NCBI GenBank assembly: GCA_000002445.1
Contig: CP000071.1
Span: 1,280,001-1,344,000 of the forward strand
Length of the DNA stretch: 64,000 nt
DNA from: Trypanosoma brucei
Lineage: Eukaryota
Direction: 5' to 3'
The notes under the pieces were generated by a model. That model was not told the origin of the DNA, made no database searches, and saw nothing but the letters and a program-made list of their open reading frames with translations. Positions within the stretch are counted from its first letter, which is position 1. Each line of letters begins with the position of its first letter. A program made the position numbers and the translations under genes. Positions 44,654 through 59,471 of this stretch are shown in pieces.

Positions 44654-45367
44654 TCATCGGCCCATCACAACGTAGCGCAGCCCCGCAAGCCACCGCCACC
44701 ACGCAGAAACTAAACGAAGTCGATAATAAGCACACACTAAAATGAAAAGGGGTTTCCTCTTGACCACCCACGGGGAATCGCGCCGCTGCTGAAGGTGCAA
44801 CTGCTCAAAATACCCCGATCCAAAGCCGTGTGAGCCCTCCGATGATCTTAACGCCGCTGCGATGCGCTCCGCCTGGGCTCCCCGCCGTTTCTCCAGGGCT
44901 CGAGCTAACGCCACGTACTCAAACAGAGAAGTCGACCCCTCACGCAGTTGCTGCTCATCTTTTTCTTGCTTCCGTTTTTGTGTTGTTGTCTTACCGCGTT
45001 GCCACGGCAGATCCCAATTTGCCATGCTGAGTGGAGTGCCAGGTACAACAAACGAAGCAGCTACCGCCTCCATTTCCTCCCTGCCACCGCCTCCAGTTGA
45101 AGGGGTGTCACTTCGGTCAACATTATTGCCCTTCATTGCCTCCTTTTGTTTTCCAGCAAGGCATTGGAGGGTTTTGTATGCGGCGGTTATGTTCGCCATT
45201 ACCTCTGCAGATGACTCCGGACCATTGTTATCCGGATGGTGTTTCTTCACGAGTTCCACGTAACGCCTTCTAAGCACCCGCCGTTCAATTGGTGGAGCGG
45301 CGAAACCCATAAGTCTACATGCTTGGCCTACGCTAACACTCCGTAAAAACGTAGAGTAAGTGAACAT
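44654..45367 (-). CDS. DnaJ/J-domain protein (237 aa from the preferred start; the maximal ORF reaches 45697)
   Basis: The J domain sits at the N-terminus of the shorter form: MFTYSTFLRSVSVGQACRLMGF...YVELVKKHHPDNNG...AAYKTL (HPD motif). The 330 nt upstream of the 45367 ATG translate to non-protein-like sequence (FFFVLHVLTPCCCC). The full ORF would leave only 78 nt to the next gene. Confidence 0.6.
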   Translation of the reverse strand: MFTYSTFLRSVSVGQACRLMGFAAPPIERRVLRRRYVELVKKHHPDNNGPESSAEVMANITAAYKTLQCLAGKQKEAMKGNNVDRSDTPSTGGGGREEMEAVAASFVVPGTPLSMANWDLPWQRGKTTTQKRKQEKDEQQLREGSTSLFEYVALARALEKRRGAQAERIAAALRSSEGSHGFGSGYFEQLHLQQRRDSPWVVKRKPLFILVCAYYRLRLVSAWWRWLAGLRYVVMGR

Positions 45368-45775
45368 ATCCACGTTTGTTTTATTGTCCGCACACCTTCT
45401 CAACTCTGTGGGATCTCCGTTTTTCCACCAAGAGTCAGAGAAAAGGGGTGTGGTACAACAGCAGCACGGGGTGAGAACATGCAACACAAAGAAGAACGCA
45501 GGGACGAAAAAAGTATTAATGTTTTGGCTCCGACGAGAACATAAACGAATAGGAAATCTCAACAAGTGACCACACAACGTACTTCCATAGTTTTCTATGA
45601 ATAAAATCAACGGCCATTCTTTTTTTTTCGTTCGCACCAAAGTAGAAGAGACCGCGGCTCGTGCACCCGAAACGTTGTGTGCAAGAAGCAAAGACATACA
45701 AACGCAGACCCAGCGAAGGCATCTGTGGCTGCACCCACAAAACTAGGGAGGCCCTCGAGCTTTCCTACCAATATA

Positions 45776-51171: not shown

Positions 51172-53421
51172 TTATTTAGATTTCTCAAACGCAGCAAAGG
51201 CCTCCTTAGCAGTTTCGCCGTACTTTGTCGTTAAATGTGACTTGAACTTGTCGAAGGCATCTTTTGGAGAAACGAAAGGCCGAACTGCCTTTAAGAAGTC
51301 CTCAAAGGCTCTCTCCGGCGTTCGACCAAGAGATTGCCACGCCACAAATACCTCTTCTAGTAGCTGGTGAAGGGGTTGCTTTGAATTTACCATCCTCTTC
51401 AGCGTCTCCTTGTGCTCACGGCAGAGATGCTCCACGTCAAATCGAACAAAGGTAAAGAAAGCCGATATGAGGCAGCACTGATGGTGGAGGGACCGCGAAA
51501 TGGGACCATTCAAAAGAGGAACATTCTTTGCTCCGTCTGCATCACATAACTGGTTGAAGAATTCCACCTCCGTGTCATATGTGGTAAATTGCCTCAAAAT
51601 GTCGTCTGATTCATCCACCACTGTACCTGACAGAAGCGGAGGAGAATACCGCAGCAGTGCCGGTAGTACACGGAAGCGGGACTTCGGGTCGTAATCGGCG
51701 TTGCTGTTTTTCGGCCCCTCGCTGAGAACAGCTTGAACTTCTTTGAGCATATTGGCTATGTGGTCGCGGCTTCCCCCGCAGTCAACGAGCATATCCAGGA
51801 AATCTGTATGGAAGGAAAGTGGGAACACACTACGACCTCCCTTTATAACAATTGCCCAGTTATGGAAGTACTTCGGAAGGTCGGTAAAGATATCTTGCTC
51901 GACTGCATCCCTGAGATGCTTACGGAGCGCTTGTCTCACTTCACTGACAGGTAGCACCCTCGCGTTCCCCAATTTCTCGAACAACTCGCCGAGCCGAGCG
52001 CGTTGATCTGCATATCGCATTGTTGTGATATAGCGGTGAATAATGGAGGAACAGTATGCTATGCGTGTCTCCTCTGGGATGTCTGCCAATAGCAACGACA
52101 CCTCCTCCAAACTTTCAGCTGTGAAGTACTTGTCCATGGCCGCCCAAAACTTATCCCGGGACGGAACAGGCTTAAGCGGGGGCGGTATCGGTGGCAAAGG
52201 GTGTCGTTCACGCTCGCTATCACCCGTCCCTGTCACGTTACCTCCTCGGTCTCCTGAACTTCGCGCCGCTGCCGCAGCGGCCCCATGACGCGGCACCCAA
52301 TTATTATCTATTGTCTCAAGTGTGTTTAGCAATAGGAACTGAATGCGCCGCTGGGGGTGAGTGTGCATGAGGTCCTGAAGCACGGAGCGAAAGTGCGGCA
52401 CGAGCTCCGCACCCTCTTTGGAAAAATCTTTCCCGCACGTCAGAAGGAGATTCATGAAATGGATTATTTCGTAATCAGCGGGTATACGTCGTTTCGTCTC
52501 CGGACCGTACAAAAGCCACTGAAGGATCTGCAAGACTACCTTCTCGCGCACGAGACCGTGTGTGAAGAGGAGACCCAGAAAATTGATGTTTGCCTTCTGC
52601 TTCGCGGCGAAGTTCATTCGGCGTTGCTCCGCCTCATCCTCAGGAAGGCCCGCAATCTCCCGCTCCAGCTTTCCTTGAGCATCATCAGCCTTCTCAAACA
52701 TATTCTGTGACTGCCTAATAATTGCACTGCGAATGCGTCGACCCGCAGGTTCGTTGTCACCGATGCTACTGATCAAGTGAGCAATCAGCTTAACATAAAG
52801 CTGTACAAAGATGCTGTCCTCCGGTTGAATGGACTTGTGAAAAATCACCCTAATAACCTCTTCAATTTCTTCATCGTCGGATTGACGAATGGGAAGATTG
52901 GTCAACTCCTTCTTCATAAGTTCAATGTTGTCTTCACTTACTTTCCCGAGAATACCTAGTACCTCGTTGTGCAACTTCCGCTCACTCATCACCTTAGAAG
53001 GCGCAGACTCCCCCTGGAAGAGGTCCTCGCGGGAGAATATATGCTCGGGCTTGTTGACGTTGTTCTCTGGCATCTCCTTCCACAAATCCGTTGCGAATTG
53101 GAGAATGCCCTTGGGTGGCAAACATTTTGTGTTCTGCAATCTGGTAAACTCAGCGATCTCGTAGACGCAGTCTTCCGGGTAGCTGGACACTGGGGACTCG
53201 GCGGTTCCAGGGGCAGGAGCCGATGTGCGGTCAAAAATACCTGCCGATGGAGACGGAGCCGCCTGGTGGTGGAGGGGTGAGCCGCTGTTGACGCCCCGAC
53301 CGAGTCCGGCCCGATGAAAGCCAATTCCACGACCTGTGGGTCGCTGAAACGAGGAGGGCCCTTGCGTTAATGGTGCAGACCCTATGCGAGGGGGAACAAC
53401 AGGTGCGGCGCGGTGCTCCAT
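51172..53421 (-). CDS. EIF4G5: MIF4G-domain protein, eIF4G-like translation initiation factor (749 aa); candidate EIF4G5
   Basis: Central HEAT-repeat MIF4G-like block (VIRVIFHKSIQPEDSIFVQLYVKLIAHL ... NFLGLLFTHGLVREKVVLQILQWLL ... FMNLLLTCGKDF). Gly/Pro-rich N-terminus. Its size and its position relative to uridine phosphorylase match my recollection of T. brucei EIF4G5; not verified here. Confidence 0.6.
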   Translation of the reverse strand: MEHRAAPVVPPRIGSAPLTQGPSSFQRPTGRGIGFHRAGLGRGVNSGSPLHHQAAPSPSAGIFDRTSAPAPGTAESPVSSYPEDCVYEIAEFTRLQNTKCLPPKGILQFATDLWKEMPENNVNKPEHIFSREDLFQGESAPSKVMSERKLHNEVLGILGKVSEDNIELMKKELTNLPIRQSDDEEIEEVIRVIFHKSIQPEDSIFVQLYVKLIAHLISSIGDNEPAGRRIRSAIIRQSQNMFEKADDAQGKLEREIAGLPEDEAEQRRMNFAAKQKANINFLGLLFTHGLVREKVVLQILQWLLYGPETKRRIPADYEIIHFMNLLLTCGKDFSKEGAELVPHFRSVLQDLMHTHPQRRIQFLLLNTLETIDNNWVPRHGAAAAAARSSGDRGGNVTGTGDSERERHPLPPIPPPLKPVPSRDKFWAAMDKYFTAESLEEVSLLLADIPEETRIAYCSSIIHRYITTMRYADQRARLGELFEKLGNARVLPVSEVRQALRKHLRDAVEQDIFTDLPKYFHNWAIVIKGGRSVFPLSFHTDFLDMLVDCGGSRDHIANMLKEVQAVLSEGPKNSNADYDPKSRFRVLPALLRYSPPLLSGTVVDESDDILRQFTTYDTEVEFFNQLCDADGAKNVPLLNGPISRSLHHQCCLISAFFTFVRFDVEHLCREHKETLKRMVNSKQPLHQLLEEVFVAWQSLGRTPERAFEDFLKAVRPFVSPKDAFDKFKSHLTTKYGETAKEAFAAFEKSK

Positions 53422-55480: not shown

Positions 55481-57385
55481 TCATTGCTTAAAGAGAAACA
55501 TAATGACGGAAACAAACGTGTGAAAACTAAGGGGCTCCAACGTATTCTTTACCAAATAATTACGGAAGTGAGCACGGTGATCTTCAAACCACAGCAGATG
55601 AACTGCCGGGCTGCGGTTGTATAGCCCCTCCATGTCCTCCCACATAACTTTACCGCATGGCGTGCTGCGTTCCAAAGCCATGAAAAGCGCACGAAGTCGA
55701 ACGGGGTGCGAAAGTAACAACGAAACATCGTCTACCTCAATCGTGGGGGGAATGTCATACATCGGTTGCGGGGTCGCGAACTTCGGTGCAACACGAGAGA
55801 GCACCGAATTACTTATGTACCCGCTGTGGCGGAAGGATAAATCGGCACCCGTCCCACAATCTCTTCCACTCGCGAAGGGCAATAAATACCTTTCCCCGGT
55901 GTGACCCTCTCCAACAGAGGGAAGAGGCACGGCAGCAGTGGCATCACTCTGTAATAGCTCCCGCTCACCTTCGCCATGCTCCTGCTGAAGTTGACCCTGT
56001 TGAGATTGCAAGGGGGGAAATATCGCTTGCACCGCACTTTCCAGTTCGTGCTCGCGCAGTAACAAGTCGAGCTCCCGCGCACGCAGTAGTTTGGCATTTG
56101 CCGCCAATTCTCGCTGTTGCTGCGCCAACTGGTGCTCCAGTTCCTTTGCTTTTTGTTGCCAGTCCCGAGCATTCAACTCACGATTTGCTGTCACGCTTCC
56201 TGGTCGGCCCTTCACGCCCTTCCTCTTCGAACCCAAAGGAGTCTCTCCAGTGTAATACGAAATGTGCGCCTGCATGTTTGCGTTCTTCACCGTCACAGTT
56301 GCCTCTAGTGTCGTCGGCCCTCGGGTTGGGGCACGGAGCCCCGGGAAAACCAGTTCACAGTGGGGCCTAACCGTAACCACACCCGCAATCTCACCGTGAT
56401 CCATGTAGCCGCTGAGTCCCGTGCAACCTGGACTTTCAGATGAAACACCCTGGTCACCCACCTCCGCTGTGGCATGATGAGGGGCGAAACCAAAGATGGC
56501 AGCAATGCATTCCCCCGCCTCTACAAGGTTGGACGCCGCATGCACAGCATTTCTAACCAAATCGTGACCAAAACGGGCTCGGATGCTGTTGGGAGAGTTG
56601 CAGCACGCGTCGACGGGGTTCTCCGGTCCAACGAGGGCTAACAAACGTTCCACGGCGTTTTCGCCCACGAGCTCCACCGCCAAACACGTCCCACCAAAAG
56701 CAAGGTGTTGTGTATGCTTCTGAAGAAGTTCCTGATACGGCAAATTTTCTAGCATGCGATTCCTTAAAACGGCAGCAGACGAGTACCTTGTTTCAGCGTT
56801 GTCGCAACCTTGCTGCACGTCAATGCTTTCTGCAGGAGGGAACAGAGACTTCTTATCACAGCCGTTAACAGACCCCTCGCTTGTTTCTCCATCATCAGCA
56901 GTTTTCGTTAAACCAGCATTAACGGCGTCACCCCCTTCACAACGAAGCTTCGTCAGCTGCATAATCTCTGCTATTATTACCTGACTTCGCTCTGGTTGGC
57001 TGGAGCCCTGCTTACTATCACTCTCACCGTCATTACTATTGCCCGAGCTTCCCCTCTCAGCGTTGTCCATTGCTCGCAGAGGTGTGGACTCGAGTTGCTT
57101 GTCACTGCTTGACTGGTTTTGGGAGATATTACCGGCCTTACGGTCGGGAAAAACTTTGTCAACCCTGTGTTCTGCGTACCGGGAGCGCCGGACGCTCGGA
57201 AACATCTTCACGATCATTTCGGCCTGCTTTGGTGTTATGATGAAGCTTTTAGCTATCACCCGGAAACCCTCATCTGCCACTATCTGAAGAATATTACGAT
57301 GGTATTGCTCAGCATCAGGTTTGCACAAAAGAAAGGTGTGCTCAGCCACCTGAGTTGCTTGTGCCTTTCTCGTTTTTTTGAACAT
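55481..57385 (-). CDS. nucleoside diphosphate kinase (NDK)-like domain protein (634 aa) with a large low-complexity insertion splitting the NDK fold, a coiled coil and a C-terminal domain of unknown function
   Basis: N-terminal EHTFLLCKPDAEQYHRNILQIVADEGFRVIAKSFI matches the NDK consensus [37 protein letters not shown]. About 190 aa later, GPENPVDA..NSPNSIRARFGHDLVRNAVHAAS matches [30 protein letters not shown], with the catalytic His retained. Then QQKAKELEHQLAQQQRELAANAKLLRAREL (coiled coil). Confidence 0.65.
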   Translation of the reverse strand: MFKKTRKAQATQVAEHTFLLCKPDAEQYHRNILQIVADEGFRVIAKSFIITPKQAEMIVKMFPSVRRSRYAEHRVDKVFPDRKAGNISQNQSSSDKQLESTPLRAMDNAERGSSGNSNDGESDSKQGSSQPERSQVIIAEIMQLTKLRCEGGDAVNAGLTKTADDGETSEGSVNGCDKKSLFPPAESIDVQQGCDNAETRYSSAAVLRNRMLENLPYQELLQKHTQHLAFGGTCLAVELVGENAVERLLALVGPENPVDACCNSPNSIRARFGHDLVRNAVHAASNLVEAGECIAAIFGFAPHHATAEVGDQGVSSESPGCTGLSGYMDHGEIAGVVTVRPHCELVFPGLRAPTRGPTTLEATVTVKNANMQAHISYYTGETPLGSKRKGVKGRPGSVTANRELNARDWQQKAKELEHQLAQQQRELAANAKLLRARELDLLLREHELESAVQAIFPPLQSQQGQLQQEHGEGERELLQSDATAAVPLPSVGEGHTGERYLLPFASGRDCGTGADLSFRHSGYISNSVLSRVAPKFATPQPMYDIPPTIEVDDVSLLLSHPVRLRALFMALERSTPCGKVMWEDMEGLYNRSPAVHLLWFEDHRAHFRNYLVKNTLEPLSFHTFVSVIMFLFKQ

Positions 57386-58691: not shown

Positions 58692-59471
58692 TTACACTTT
58701 TCCAGCGAGCGGAACTCCATACGCCCCACATCTGTGAACCCCTTCCACAATTTGTTTACAAGCGTACCATGCAACGCACTGCTGCGTAAAAAGGTAGTTA
58801 AGTGCCATGAAAAAGCACACAATCACTTCTACCGCAACTTCAACGGATTGAAGTGTGCAATCGGGAGGTTCGTTTTCTTCACTCTGTCGGCAAACATAAA
58901 GGGTGACATGCCCCATTCCAAGCGTAATTGCAGTGAGAGCAAATGCAATGAGAGAAATAAGCTGCTGTATAAAGAATATTTTAGTGCTTGGTTTTTTACA
59001 GTGCAGCAAAATGGACAAGGCAGCAGAAGCCACAACAAATAATAGGGCCACAATACACATGAAACCATGCACAAATCCCCATTCAGTTTTCACCATGGAA
59101 GTTATCCAAGCAACGACAAGTACTACAATTGCCGGAAAGCTCAAAACGGTGCACGTGAGGTTGGTCCACATGACCGCCGCGGACTTCCGCTTTATTTTCG
59201 TCATCTGCTTAGTGAGGTCTATCATATCGCCTTTGTAACGAAGCTGGAAATAAGTGCTTCTACAAAAGAAAAACGGGATGCGGTGCCTGGCTAATTTCCT
59301 ACAACCAAACAACAGATCATCGAAGAGGAACATAAAGACATAAAGTAATTTAAAAAATGTATGGCACTGATGCGGATAATTATGAACACAAATAAAAGGG
59401 GAAAAAAGGAGCGCTGCGATGCGTTTCAAAGGAACCCGTCTCGGAATCTGCAACACAACCATCAGACGCAT
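58692..59471 (-). CDS. hypothetical multi-pass membrane protein (maximal ORF 259 aa; the true start is probably internal at about 59225, MIDLTKQ...)
   Basis: Four hydrophobic segments in the C-terminal 175 aa. The first ~80 codons overlap a purine-rich stretch that looks like a 5' UTR or splice region. Confidence 0.5.
   Translation of the reverse strand: MRLMVVLQIPRRVPLKRIAALLFSPFICVHNYPHQCHTFFKLLYVFMFLFDDLLFGCRKLARHRIPFFFCRSTYFQLRYKGDMIDLTKQMTKIKRKSAAVMWTNLTCTVLSFPAIVVLVVAWITSMVKTEWGFVHGFMCIVALLFVVASAALSILLHCKKPSTKIFFIQQLISLIAFALTAITLGMGHVTLYVCRQSEENEPPDCTLQSVEVAVEVIVCFFMALNYLFTQQCVAWYACKQIVEGVHRCGAYGVPLAGKV

What the first reader, a model, noticed from the sequence alone, without database searches (positions are those of the whole stretch)
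55481..57385. NDK-fold protein whose kinase domain is split by a ~190-aa disordered insert
Residues ~14-60 match the N-terminal beta-alpha-beta of nucleoside diphosphate kinase. The remainder of the NDK core, including the NxxH catalytic histidine motif (RNAVHAAS), resumes about 190 residues later, after a Ser/Gly/Asp-rich low-complexity insert. A coiled coil and a ~150-aa C-terminal region follow. If the His is functional, this is an NDK with an unusually placed insert at the position of the Kpn/alpha-A-alpha-2 region. Otherwise it is a pseudokinase scaffold, plausibly axonemal like NME5/7/8-type proteins.
Basis: partly seen in the sequence, partly recalled or inferred. Interest (0 to 1): 0.6.

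Follow-up and report, generated by a model that had tools for sequence, protein, structure and literature searches.

The report
Split, degenerate NDK-fold protein TbNDPK4
This Trypanosoma brucei gene (TbNDPK4, Tb927.8.4510) encodes a real nucleoside-diphosphate-kinase fold interrupted by a ~145-residue insert, but its catalytic machinery is largely eroded, so it is most likely a non-enzymatic scaffold protein specific to kinetoplastid parasites and not a working kinase.

Summary
The 634-aa ORF at 55481-57385 (-) is identical to T. b. brucei TREU927 Tb927.8.4510, listed in the literature only as the uncharacterised 'putative' TbNDPK4.

- **Insert:** It is about 145 aa (not ~190) and splits the alphaA-alpha2 hairpin. 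The Kpn loop is intact. The insert is mostly disordered but carries a conserved helix plus a GVNAGL motif. One relative, P0020, lacks the insert.
- **Active site:** H282 is present in T. brucei but is Ser, Tyr or Phe in 11 of 16 relatives. Y52, R88, T94, S120 and E129 equivalents are lost. This favours a pseudokinase.
- **Downstream:** a confident long helix (406-455) and a degenerate EF-hand-pair-like domain (545-634).
- **Axonemal location:** untested, and mildly disfavoured because no TbNDPK4 chain appears in the solved T. brucei doublet structures.

This is a new variant of a known kind, of moderate interest.

The parts
55481..57385 (-). Whole ORF including the stop codon, 634 aa. This is TbNDPK4 / Tb927.8.4510.
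   Evidence: ORF list. Identical to P0007, XP_847282.1 of TREU927. Gene name and ID from the table in PMC8833001.
57185..57346 (-). NDK N-half, residues 14-67: beta1, alpha0/alpha1, beta2 and alphaA. It contains K22, the equivalent of NME1 K12.
   Evidence: Pfam residues 15-56 to profile 1-45. The N-half-only family profile hits NDK N-termini, best E 2.3e-5. AF2 pLDDT 85-96.
56750..57184 (-). Insert, residues 68-212 (~145 aa), splitting the alphaA-alpha2 hairpin. It is mostly disordered, and Ser, Asp and Asn are mildly enriched.
   Evidence: Boundaries were set against the unsplit relative P0020. Insert length is 124-399 aa in the 15 split relatives. pLDDT is below 50 for 84-130 and 150-198. 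Both strain polymorphisms (S93N, N108S) lie here.
56909..56995 (-). Conserved island inside the insert, residues 131-159: an amphipathic helix (IIAEIMQLT) plus the GxVNAGL motif.
   Evidence: E140, I141 and V155-L159 are invariant in alignment A1. The helix motif is recognisable in all 15 split members. AF2 predicts helix 131-149 with block-mean pLDDT 65-68.
56486..56749 (-). NDK C-half, residues 213-300: alpha2, beta3, alpha3, Kpn loop, beta4 (with NxxH) and alpha4.
   Evidence: Pfam residues 231-298 to profile 66-130, 39.3 bits. Best PDB sequence hits are NME7/FAP67-type NDK domains, E 1e-17 to 1e-10. AF2 pLDDT is about 70-95.
56558..56629 (-). Intact Kpn loop, residues 253-276 (GPENPVDACCNSPNSIRARFGHDL). 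It carries E255 in place of T94 and keeps R269, the equivalent of R105.
   Evidence: Alignment to NME1 and DdNDK. G253, P254, A260, P265, S267, A270, G273 and D275 are invariant in the 16-member family, and E255 and R271 are nearly invariant.
56540..56542 (-). Codon of H282, the equivalent of the catalytic His118 of NME1.
   Evidence: Translation check. The column reads H in 5 members, Y in 7, S in 2 and F in 2 of 16.
56246..56368 (-). Moderately conserved linker motifs, residues 340-380 (RP...SYYTG). Function unknown.
   Evidence: R340, P341, Y378 and G380 are invariant in A1. The SY(Y/F)TG motif is recognisable in 11 of 16 family members, including the Leishmaniinae forms. AF2 confidence is low.
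56021..56170 (-). Long helix, residues 406-455, inferred to be a coiled coil. It has the conserved core RARELDLLLRE.
   Evidence: AF2 predicts one helix 406-455 with pLDDT 92-96. The motif is conserved across the family.
55484..55753 (-). C-terminal helical domain, residues 545-634: a degenerate EF-hand-pair-like fold.

Best explanation
Tb927.8.4510 (TbNDPK4) is a member of a kinetoplastid-restricted family of NDK-fold pseudoenzymes.

**Shown.**
- It has a complete NDK alpha/beta fold whose alphaA-alpha2 hairpin is opened by a ~145-aa, largely disordered insert. That hairpin is one jaw of the nucleotide clamp.
- The insert carries a conserved helix and a GVNAGL motif.
- The phosphotransfer machinery is degraded and the nucleophilic His is dispensable across the family.
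- A long helix and a degenerate EF-hand-pair-like domain follow.

**Inferred.**
- The protein does not act as an NDP kinase. The NDK core serves as a structural or binding module.
- It may still bind a nucleotide-like ligand, because K22, probably Y217, R269 and N279 are kept.
- The 406-455 helix dimerises the protein as a coiled coil.
- The non-Ca-binding EF-hand pair and the short conserved motifs (insert helix/GVNAGL, SYYTG) dock partner proteins.

The cellular site of action is unknown.

For: **Degeneracy, from alignment to PDB-verified NME1 and Dictyostelium NDK.**
- Kept in T. brucei: K12, R105, N115, H118.
- Lost in T. brucei: Y52F, R88L, T94E, S120A, E129C.
- The review PMC7554756 lists K10, Y50, R86, T92 and R104 (M. 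tuberculosis numbering) as the phosphate ligands, says that substituting them lowers activity, and calls the His 'strictly conserved'.
- Across 16 family members the His column is H in 5, Y in 7, S in 2 and F in 2. Meanwhile N279 and V281 are nearly invariant in the family, and A283 is invariant among the six Trypanosoma-type sequences. The fold is therefore under selection and the nucleophile is not.

**Downstream modules.** Helix 406-455 and the EF-hand-like domain are supported.

**Family reality.** The same architecture occurs in T. vivax, T. cruzi, T. rangeli, Leptomonas and Lotmaria, and in seven proteins from unnamed assemblies that carry at least the split NDK core (some of them partial).

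**Precedent.** The other long trypanosomatid NDK-fold proteins (CFAP67A and CFAP67B) act as structural microtubule inner proteins that bind distinct partners (PMC7617938).
Against: - T. brucei and T. vivax do retain the NxxH His together with K12, R105 and N115. Residual autophosphorylation or a non-canonical phosphotransfer in these species is not excluded.
- No biochemical or localisation data were accessible.
- The residue audit depends on a MAFFT alignment across a splice point. F60 is one column off, and Y217 in 'PY' may be its equivalent.
- The AF2 model was built from an alignment that itself carries the NDK signal, so the assembly of the two halves is a prediction, not an observation.
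- Coiled-coil dimerisation and partner docking are inferences only.
Confidence: 0.62

Rival explanations
1. It is an active NDP kinase, at least in African trypanosomes. H282 is phosphorylated, and the insert acts as a regulatory lid or targeting loop on the nucleotide clamp.
For: - H282, K22, R269 and N279 are present.
- PF00334 scores above its gathering cut-off.
- Databases name the orthologues 'nucleoside diphosphate kinase 4' or 'putative NDK'.
- The alphaA-alpha2 region is intrinsically remodelable in real NDKs (PMC7554756), so an insert there need not destroy the fold.
Against: - Three of the five phosphate ligands are lost, as are both residues of the pocket list that accompany the His (S120, E129).
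- E255 puts an acidic side chain in the phosphate pocket and is nearly invariant in the family.
- The His is replaced in T. cruzi (S), T. rangeli (Y) and nine other members, while neighbouring residues stay conserved.
- The review still lists the activity only as 'Putative'.
Confidence: 0.13
2. It is an axonemal or flagellar structural component, analogous to NME5/RSP23, NME7/CFAP67 or NME8/9. It concerns location and is compatible with the pseudokinase reading.
For: - The best sequence and structure matches are group-II ciliary NDK domains: Tetrahymena, Chlamydomonas and mammalian NME7/FAP67, and RSP23/NME5.
- Both other long trypanosomatid NDK proteins are doublet-microtubule inner proteins.
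- EF-hand and coiled-coil modules are common in axonemal proteins (general knowledge).
Against: - None of the domains that accompany NDK domains in the known ciliary NMEs was detected: DM10, DPY30 and thioredoxin are all absent.
- No chain identical to TbNDPK4 exists in PDB, although T. brucei 48-nm and 96-nm doublet entries (9e2g, 9e5c) contain NDPK2-length, NDPK3-length and 223-aa NDK-like chains.
- The gene ID appears in the main text of only one paper, the review, which gives localisation as 'nd'.
- It was not found in the (truncated) TrypTag and hyperLOPIT supplements.
Confidence: 0.2
3. It is an artefact: a fused or mis-called gene model, or a chance NDK-like N-terminal match, so that the 'split domain' is not real.
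For: The N-half alone is only borderline against Pfam (E 0.076). In most split relatives Pfam reports only the C-half.
Against: - The same colinear architecture and near-identical length occur in five Trypanosoma species, and the start and stop are conserved.
- The family N-half profile is significantly and specifically NDK.
- The spliced construct scores higher than the native protein, as one envelope.
Confidence: 0.02

Closest known systems
TcNDPK4 / TbNDPK4, the 'putative' fourth NDPK isoform of trypanosomes (PMC8833001)
   Same: It is this very gene: Tb927.8.4510, 634 aa. Its T. cruzi orthologue is TcCLB.508989.100, 632 aa.
   Different: - The literature records only length, 'Putative' activity, no localisation, no human orthologue, and absence from Leishmania.
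- The review contains no occurrence of 'insertion', and all three of its mentions of TcNDPK4 were read without finding any such description. It therefore does not describe the split domain, the degenerate active site, the variable His or the EF-hand-like domain.
- Short-form relatives do exist in the Leishmaniinae Leptomonas and Lotmaria.
NME7 / CFAP67 (FAP67; TbNDPK2 and TbNDPK3 in trypanosomes)
   Different: CFAP67 has an N-terminal DM10 domain and two tandem, unsplit NDK domains. TbNDPK4 has one NDK domain, split by an insert, no DM10, and a coiled coil plus an EF-hand-like tail.
NME5 / RSP23 (radial-spoke NDK)
   Different: NME5/RSP23 carries a DPY30 domain (and IQ motifs in Chlamydomonas, from my own knowledge). 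No DPY30 was detected here, and its NDK domain is not split. A separate 223-aa NDK-like chain already sits in the T. brucei 96-nm repeat (9e5c_3q).
XRP2 (RP2) C-terminal NDK-like domain
   Different: The sequence relationship is much more distant (13% identity). RP2's domain is C-terminal to a TBCC-like GAP domain and has no insert. That it is non-catalytic is from my own knowledge and was not tested here.
Pyrobaculum aerophilum NDK (1xqi), an NDK with extra inserted segments
   Different: Its inserts are short (tens of residues) and structured, and the enzyme is active (from my own knowledge). The insert here is about 145 aa and largely disordered, and the active site is degenerate.

Membership tests
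NDK superfamily (Pfam PF00334) - fold membership | PF00334 HMM score above the gathering threshold | tested here: met
   50.4 bits against a cut-off of 27, in two colinear stretches. The spliced construct scores 55.5 bits as one stretch, profile 1-130.
NDK superfamily (Pfam PF00334) - fold membership | Four-stranded antiparallel sheet (beta2-beta3-beta1-beta4) with an alphaA-alpha2 hairpin and a Kpn loop | tested here: met
   [not shown]
Catalytically active NDP kinase (EC 2.7.4.6) | Strictly conserved nucleophilic His (NME1 H118) | tested here: inconclusive
   It is present in T. brucei (H282) and T. vivax. It is Ser, Tyr or Phe in 11 of 16 family members, including T. cruzi and T. rangeli.
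Catalytically active NDP kinase (EC 2.7.4.6) | Phosphate-binding residues K12, Y52, R88, T94 and R105 (PMC7554756) | tested here: not met
   Only K12 (K22) and R105 (R269) are kept. The others are Y52F, R88L and T94E.
Catalytically active NDP kinase (EC 2.7.4.6) | Active-site pocket residues N115, S120 and E129 (PMC7554756 pocket list) | tested here: not met
   N279 is kept. S120 is Ala and E129 is Cys.
Catalytically active NDP kinase (EC 2.7.4.6) | Base-stacking aromatic on the alphaA-alpha2 hairpin (F60) | tested here: inconclusive
   MAFFT places P216 at the F60 column. Y217 is one column away in a 'PY' pair resembling NME1 'PF', and it is conserved in most long-form members. The assignment depends on the alignment, because it sits next to the splice point.
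Catalytically active NDP kinase (EC 2.7.4.6) | Measured NDP kinase activity, phospho-His intermediate and oligomeric state | not testable with these tools
   The review lists activity as 'Putative'. No experimental data were found.
NME7 / CFAP67 | N-terminal DM10 domain plus two tandem NDK domains | tested here: not met
   Pfam finds no DM10 and only one (split) NDK domain.
NME5 / RSP23 | NDK domain followed by a DPY30 domain | tested here: not met
   No DPY30 hit even at E <= 10. The region after the NDK core is disordered, followed by a long helix and an EF-hand-like domain.
NME8/NME9 (TXNDC3/6) | Thioredoxin domain plus one or more NDK domains | tested here: not met
   No thioredoxin hit.
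EF-hand pair (C-terminal domain, residues 545-634) | Sequence or fold similarity to EF-hand pairs | tested here: met
   [not shown]
EF-hand pair (C-terminal domain, residues 545-634) | Canonical 12-residue Ca-binding loop (D-x-D/N-x-D/S-G-x-I-x-x-x-E) | tested here: not met
   Read directly from the sequence and alignment A3. T. brucei loop 1 is 'ERSTPCGKVMWED', one residue longer than in its relatives and without an acidic 1/3/5 triad. Loop 2 is 'NTLEPLSFHTFV', which lacks G6 and E12. Ca binding is therefore unlikely.

The most novel reading that the evidence does not exclude
The NDK fold has been repurposed in kinetoplastids into a new kind of binding module. The insert's conserved helix and GVNAGL motif replace one jaw of the nucleotide clamp. 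An invariant Glu (E255) and a family-specific set of conserved His and Cys residues (C21, H29, H224, H227, C234) remodel the former phosphate pocket. Together these would create a site for a different ligand, metal or partner protein. Its occupancy would be read out through the coiled coil and the degenerate EF-hand pair. That would make this a lineage-specific NDK-derived sensor or adaptor with no counterpart in the host.
Probability: 0.2. Interest if true: 0.55.

Novelty: new variant of a known kind. Interest (0 to 1): 0.38.

Why it matters
**Annotation and drug-target work.** TbNDPK4 and TcNDPK4 are counted in the literature and in databases as a fourth 'putative' NDP kinase of trypanosomes. 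NDPKs are discussed there as possible drug targets. Showing that this isoform is probably a pseudoenzyme would correct the inventory of nucleotide-metabolism enzymes. It would also redirect work on this protein from enzymology to partner-finding and localisation.

**Protein evolution.** It is a clear natural example of a small enzyme fold that tolerates a ~145-400-aa disordered insertion in a functional loop. An unsplit relative (P0020) is available for comparison.

**Pseudoenzyme evolution.** The nucleophile has been lost repeatedly while the fold stays conserved.

**Limits.** The family is restricted to kinetoplastids and no phenotype is known, so the impact is moderate.

Tried and rejected
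- **First AF2 run.** With the 6-sequence alignment the model was too poor for the NDK region (mean pLDDT 43). I repeated it with 16 sequences.
- **Profile search with A2.** The word-indexed search returned only the six proteins already known, probably because low-complexity words saturated the candidate list. One search was wasted.
- **Localisation and fitness data.**
  - Full-text searches for NDPK4, Tb927.8.4510, TcCLB.508989.100 and TcNDPK4 found only the 2022 review.
  - The TrypTag and hyperLOPIT supplements returned no hit. The TrypTag files are known to have been truncated when stored, so this is not evidence of absence.
  - The RIT-seq paper is not held.
- **AFDB fold search.** Unavailable, so other NDK-plus-EF-hand architectures could not be surveyed.
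- **Organisms of the unnamed relatives.** `look-up of encoding contigs` gave only SRA run numbers.
- **Gene neighbourhood.** The neighbours are a MIF4G protein, a weak DnaJ match and a multi-TM protein. I judged this uninformative, because trypanosome genes lie in long polycistronic units without functional clustering.
- **Rejected readings.**
  - 'The insert sits in the Kpn loop' is rejected because the Kpn loop is intact.
  - 'Gene-model artefact' is rejected because the architecture is conserved.
  - The weak Pfam hits to Treslin_N, RasGAP and ATG14 (E 0.04-2.3) lie in low-complexity or coiled-coil regions and were dismissed as noise.
Full report
**1. What is there**

The minus-strand ORF 55481-57385 encodes 634 aa. 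It is identical to P0007 (XP_847282.1/AAZ13216.1) of T. b. brucei TREU927. It differs from the T. b. gambiense DAL972 protein only at S93N.

A 2022 review lists this gene as TbNDPK4, Tb927.8.4510, 634 aa. It gives activity as 'Putative', localisation as 'nd', and no human orthologue. The T. cruzi orthologue TcNDPK4 is described as a putative isoform 'not present in Leishmania spp.' (PMC8833001). No other paper in the searchable library names the gene.

**2. Is the NDK domain really split?**

Yes, on five lines of evidence.

- **Pfam.** PF00334 scores 50.4 bits (cut-off 27) in two stretches.
  - Scanned separately, residues 15-56 match profile positions 1-45 (13.3 bits, E 0.076).
  - Residues 231-298 match positions 66-130 (39.3 bits).
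  - A construct with the middle removed gives one envelope covering positions 1-130 at a higher score, 55.5 bits.
- **The N-half on its own.** The N-half is weak alone, so I built a 15-sequence family profile of only that half. 33 of its 36 PDB matches are NDKs. The best is NME7 at E 2.3e-5. The matches always align to the first ~45 residues of an NDK domain.
- **An unsplit relative.** P0020 has a clearly homologous N-half that runs straight into alpha2. It gives a single PF00334 match, residues 16-160 to profile 1-131. Caveat: P0020 is a 326-aa product of a short assembled contig.
- **Structure prediction.** With only six sequences AlphaFold2 was uninformative. With the 16-member family alignment it was confident for residues 11-80 (pLDDT 85-96) and 201-300 (about 70-95).

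**3. Anatomy of the insert**

- **Size.** Measured against P0020 the insertion is residues 68-212, about 145 aa. Among the split relatives it ranges from 124 to 399 aa.
- **Position.** It lies between alphaA (helix 52-59) and alpha2 (helix 217-230), inside the alphaA-alpha2 hairpin. The literature describes that hairpin as forming, with the Kpn loop, the clamp that holds the nucleotide. It also describes the hairpin as remodelable in real NDKs (PMC7554756).
- **Kpn loop.** The Kpn loop (253-276) is intact and is among the most conserved parts of the protein.
- **Order and conservation.** The insert is mildly rich in Ser, Asp, Asn and Gly. It is mostly low-confidence in AF2. Both known strain polymorphisms fall in it. 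It nevertheless contains a conserved island: a predicted helix 131-149 (IIAEIMQLT) followed by an invariant VNAGL.

**4. Is it a kinase?**

I aligned the family cores to human NME1 and Dictyostelium NDK.

| NME1 residue | Role (PMC7554756) | TbNDPK4 |
|---|---|---|
| K12 | phosphate ligand | kept (K22) |
| Y52 | phosphate ligand | Phe |
| R88 | phosphate ligand | Leu |
| T94 | phosphate ligand | Glu (E255) |
| R105 | phosphate ligand | kept (R269) |
| N115 | active-site pocket | kept (N279) |
| H118 | nucleophile | kept (H282) |
| S120 | active-site pocket | Ala |
| E129 | active-site pocket | Cys |

The review states that substituting the phosphate ligands lowers activity, and it calls the His strictly conserved.

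The decisive comparative result concerns the His column. It reads H in only 5 of 16 family members. It is S in T. cruzi and T. c. marinkellei. It is Y in T. rangeli and six others. It is F in two. By contrast N279 and V281 are nearly invariant in the family, A283 is invariant among the six Trypanosoma-type sequences, and much of the Kpn loop is invariant or nearly so.

So selection maintains the fold but not the nucleophile. E255, an acidic residue in the former phosphate pocket, is nearly invariant. I therefore favour a pseudokinase. Residual His chemistry in T. brucei and T. vivax is not excluded.

**5. The rest of the protein**

- After the NDK core comes a poorly predicted linker with conserved RP...SYYTG motifs (340-380).
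- Next is a very confident single helix, 406-455 (pLDDT 92-96), with the family-wide RARELDLLLRE core. I infer a coiled coil.
- About 90 disordered residues follow.
- The protein ends in a confident five-helix domain, 545-634.
  - A profile of this last domain hits EF-hand proteins in 44 of 47 listed PDB matches (best E 5.6e-5). Pair-length alignments include CDPK1, KChIP1 and T. cruzi FCaBP.
  - The Ca-ligand positions are not canonical in T. brucei. Loop 1 is one residue too long, and loop 2 lacks G6 and E12.
  - Pfam EF-hand models do not hit the T. brucei sequence.
  - It is best described as a degenerate EF-hand pair that probably does not bind calcium.

**6. Distribution**

An exhaustive HMMER scan of 1.84 billion representative proteins found 1137 hits at E <= 1e-3. 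Most are ordinary or multi-domain NDKs. Only about 16 proteins share the split architecture.

Named members are:
- T. brucei, T. vivax, T. cruzi, T. c. marinkellei and T. rangeli;
- Leptomonas seymouri, L. pyrrhocoris and Lotmaria passim.

The Leishmaniinae forms are short (~460 aa). They lack the EF-hand-like domain but keep the split NDK, the insert helix, SYYTG and a short RERLDEL helix.

No protein named Leishmania appeared. That is consistent with the published statement for the genus, but it shows the family is not confined to Trypanosoma.

**7. Where does it act?**

This is unknown.

- The nearest NDK domains are ciliary group-II types (NME7/FAP67, NME5/RSP23).
- The two other long trypanosomatid NDK proteins are doublet-microtubule inner proteins that bind distinct partners (PMC7617938).
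- However, TbNDPK4 lacks DM10, DPY30 and thioredoxin domains.
- It has no identical chain in PDB. The T. brucei 48-nm and 96-nm doublet entries contain 334-aa, 349-aa and 223-aa NDK-like chains. I infer from length and naming that the 334-aa and 349-aa chains are NDPK2 and NDPK3.
- The spatial-proteome and TrypTag supplements could not be searched completely.

I rate an axonemal location as possible but unsupported.

**8. Verdict**

The 'pseudokinase scaffold' branch is favoured. The 'axonemal' part is untested.
- The gene itself is already catalogued as putative NDPK4.
- What appears to be undescribed is the split fold, the eroded active site with a dispensable His, the conserved insert island, the EF-hand-like tail, and the Leishmaniinae short forms.
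- This is a new variant of a known kind (a group-II-like NDK-fold pseudoenzyme), of moderate interest.

Noticed in passing
window 55481-57385 (-), residues 21, 29, 224, 227 and 234: A set of His and Cys residues that are not part of the canonical NDK site is conserved across the 16-member family. H29 and H224 are invariant, and C21 and H227 are nearly invariant. C234 is invariant only among the six Trypanosoma-type sequences. They could form a metal site or could simply be core packing.
   Followed up: no
window 56621-56623 (-), residue E255: The Kpn-loop motif 'GxTNP' of canonical NDKs is 'GPE(N/D)P' here. The phosphate-binding Thr94 is replaced by a nearly invariant Glu, which puts a negative charge in the former phosphate pocket.
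   Followed up: partly
window 57062-57109 (-), residues 93 and 108: The only amino-acid differences between the window (TREU927), DAL972 (P0001) and a third T. brucei-group sequence (P0008) are S93N and N108S. Both lie inside the insert, consistent with relaxed constraint there.
   Followed up: yes
P0069, P0176 and P0075 cluster (Leptomonas seymouri, L. pyrrhocoris, Lotmaria passim); no locus fetched: Short (~460 aa) relatives with the same split NDK, insert helix and SYYTG motif, but no EF-hand-like tail, exist in non-Leishmania Leishmaniinae. They are annotated only as hypothetical proteins. The literature says NDPK4 has no Leishmania orthologue.
   Followed up: partly
P0020 (326 aa, from a 1751-nt Logan contig): This family member has no insert. 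Its NDK domain is contiguous (PF00334 profile 1-131 in one stretch). It may represent the ancestral unsplit state or an early-branching lineage. The organism is unknown.
   Followed up: partly
[not shown]
   Followed up: no
window 51172-53421 (-); 44654-45697 (-); 58692-59471 (-): Neighbouring ORFs on the same strand are a 749-aa MIF4G-domain protein (E 2.5e-14), a 347-aa protein with a sub-threshold DnaJ match, and a 259-aa hydrophobic protein. The last has a Pfam hit to herpesvirus LMP2 that barely clears the cut-off (25.5 against 25 bits) and probably reflects transmembrane composition. All ORFs of 250 aa or more from 11 kb onward lie on the minus strand, as expected for one polycistronic unit.
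   Followed up: partly
P0017, P0019, P0022, P0024 and others: Many of the non-family hits are very long proteins (1000-1500 aa) with 7-12 separate NDK-like stretches. These are multi-NDK-domain proteins from unnamed eukaryotic assemblies. I did not examine them.
   Followed up: no
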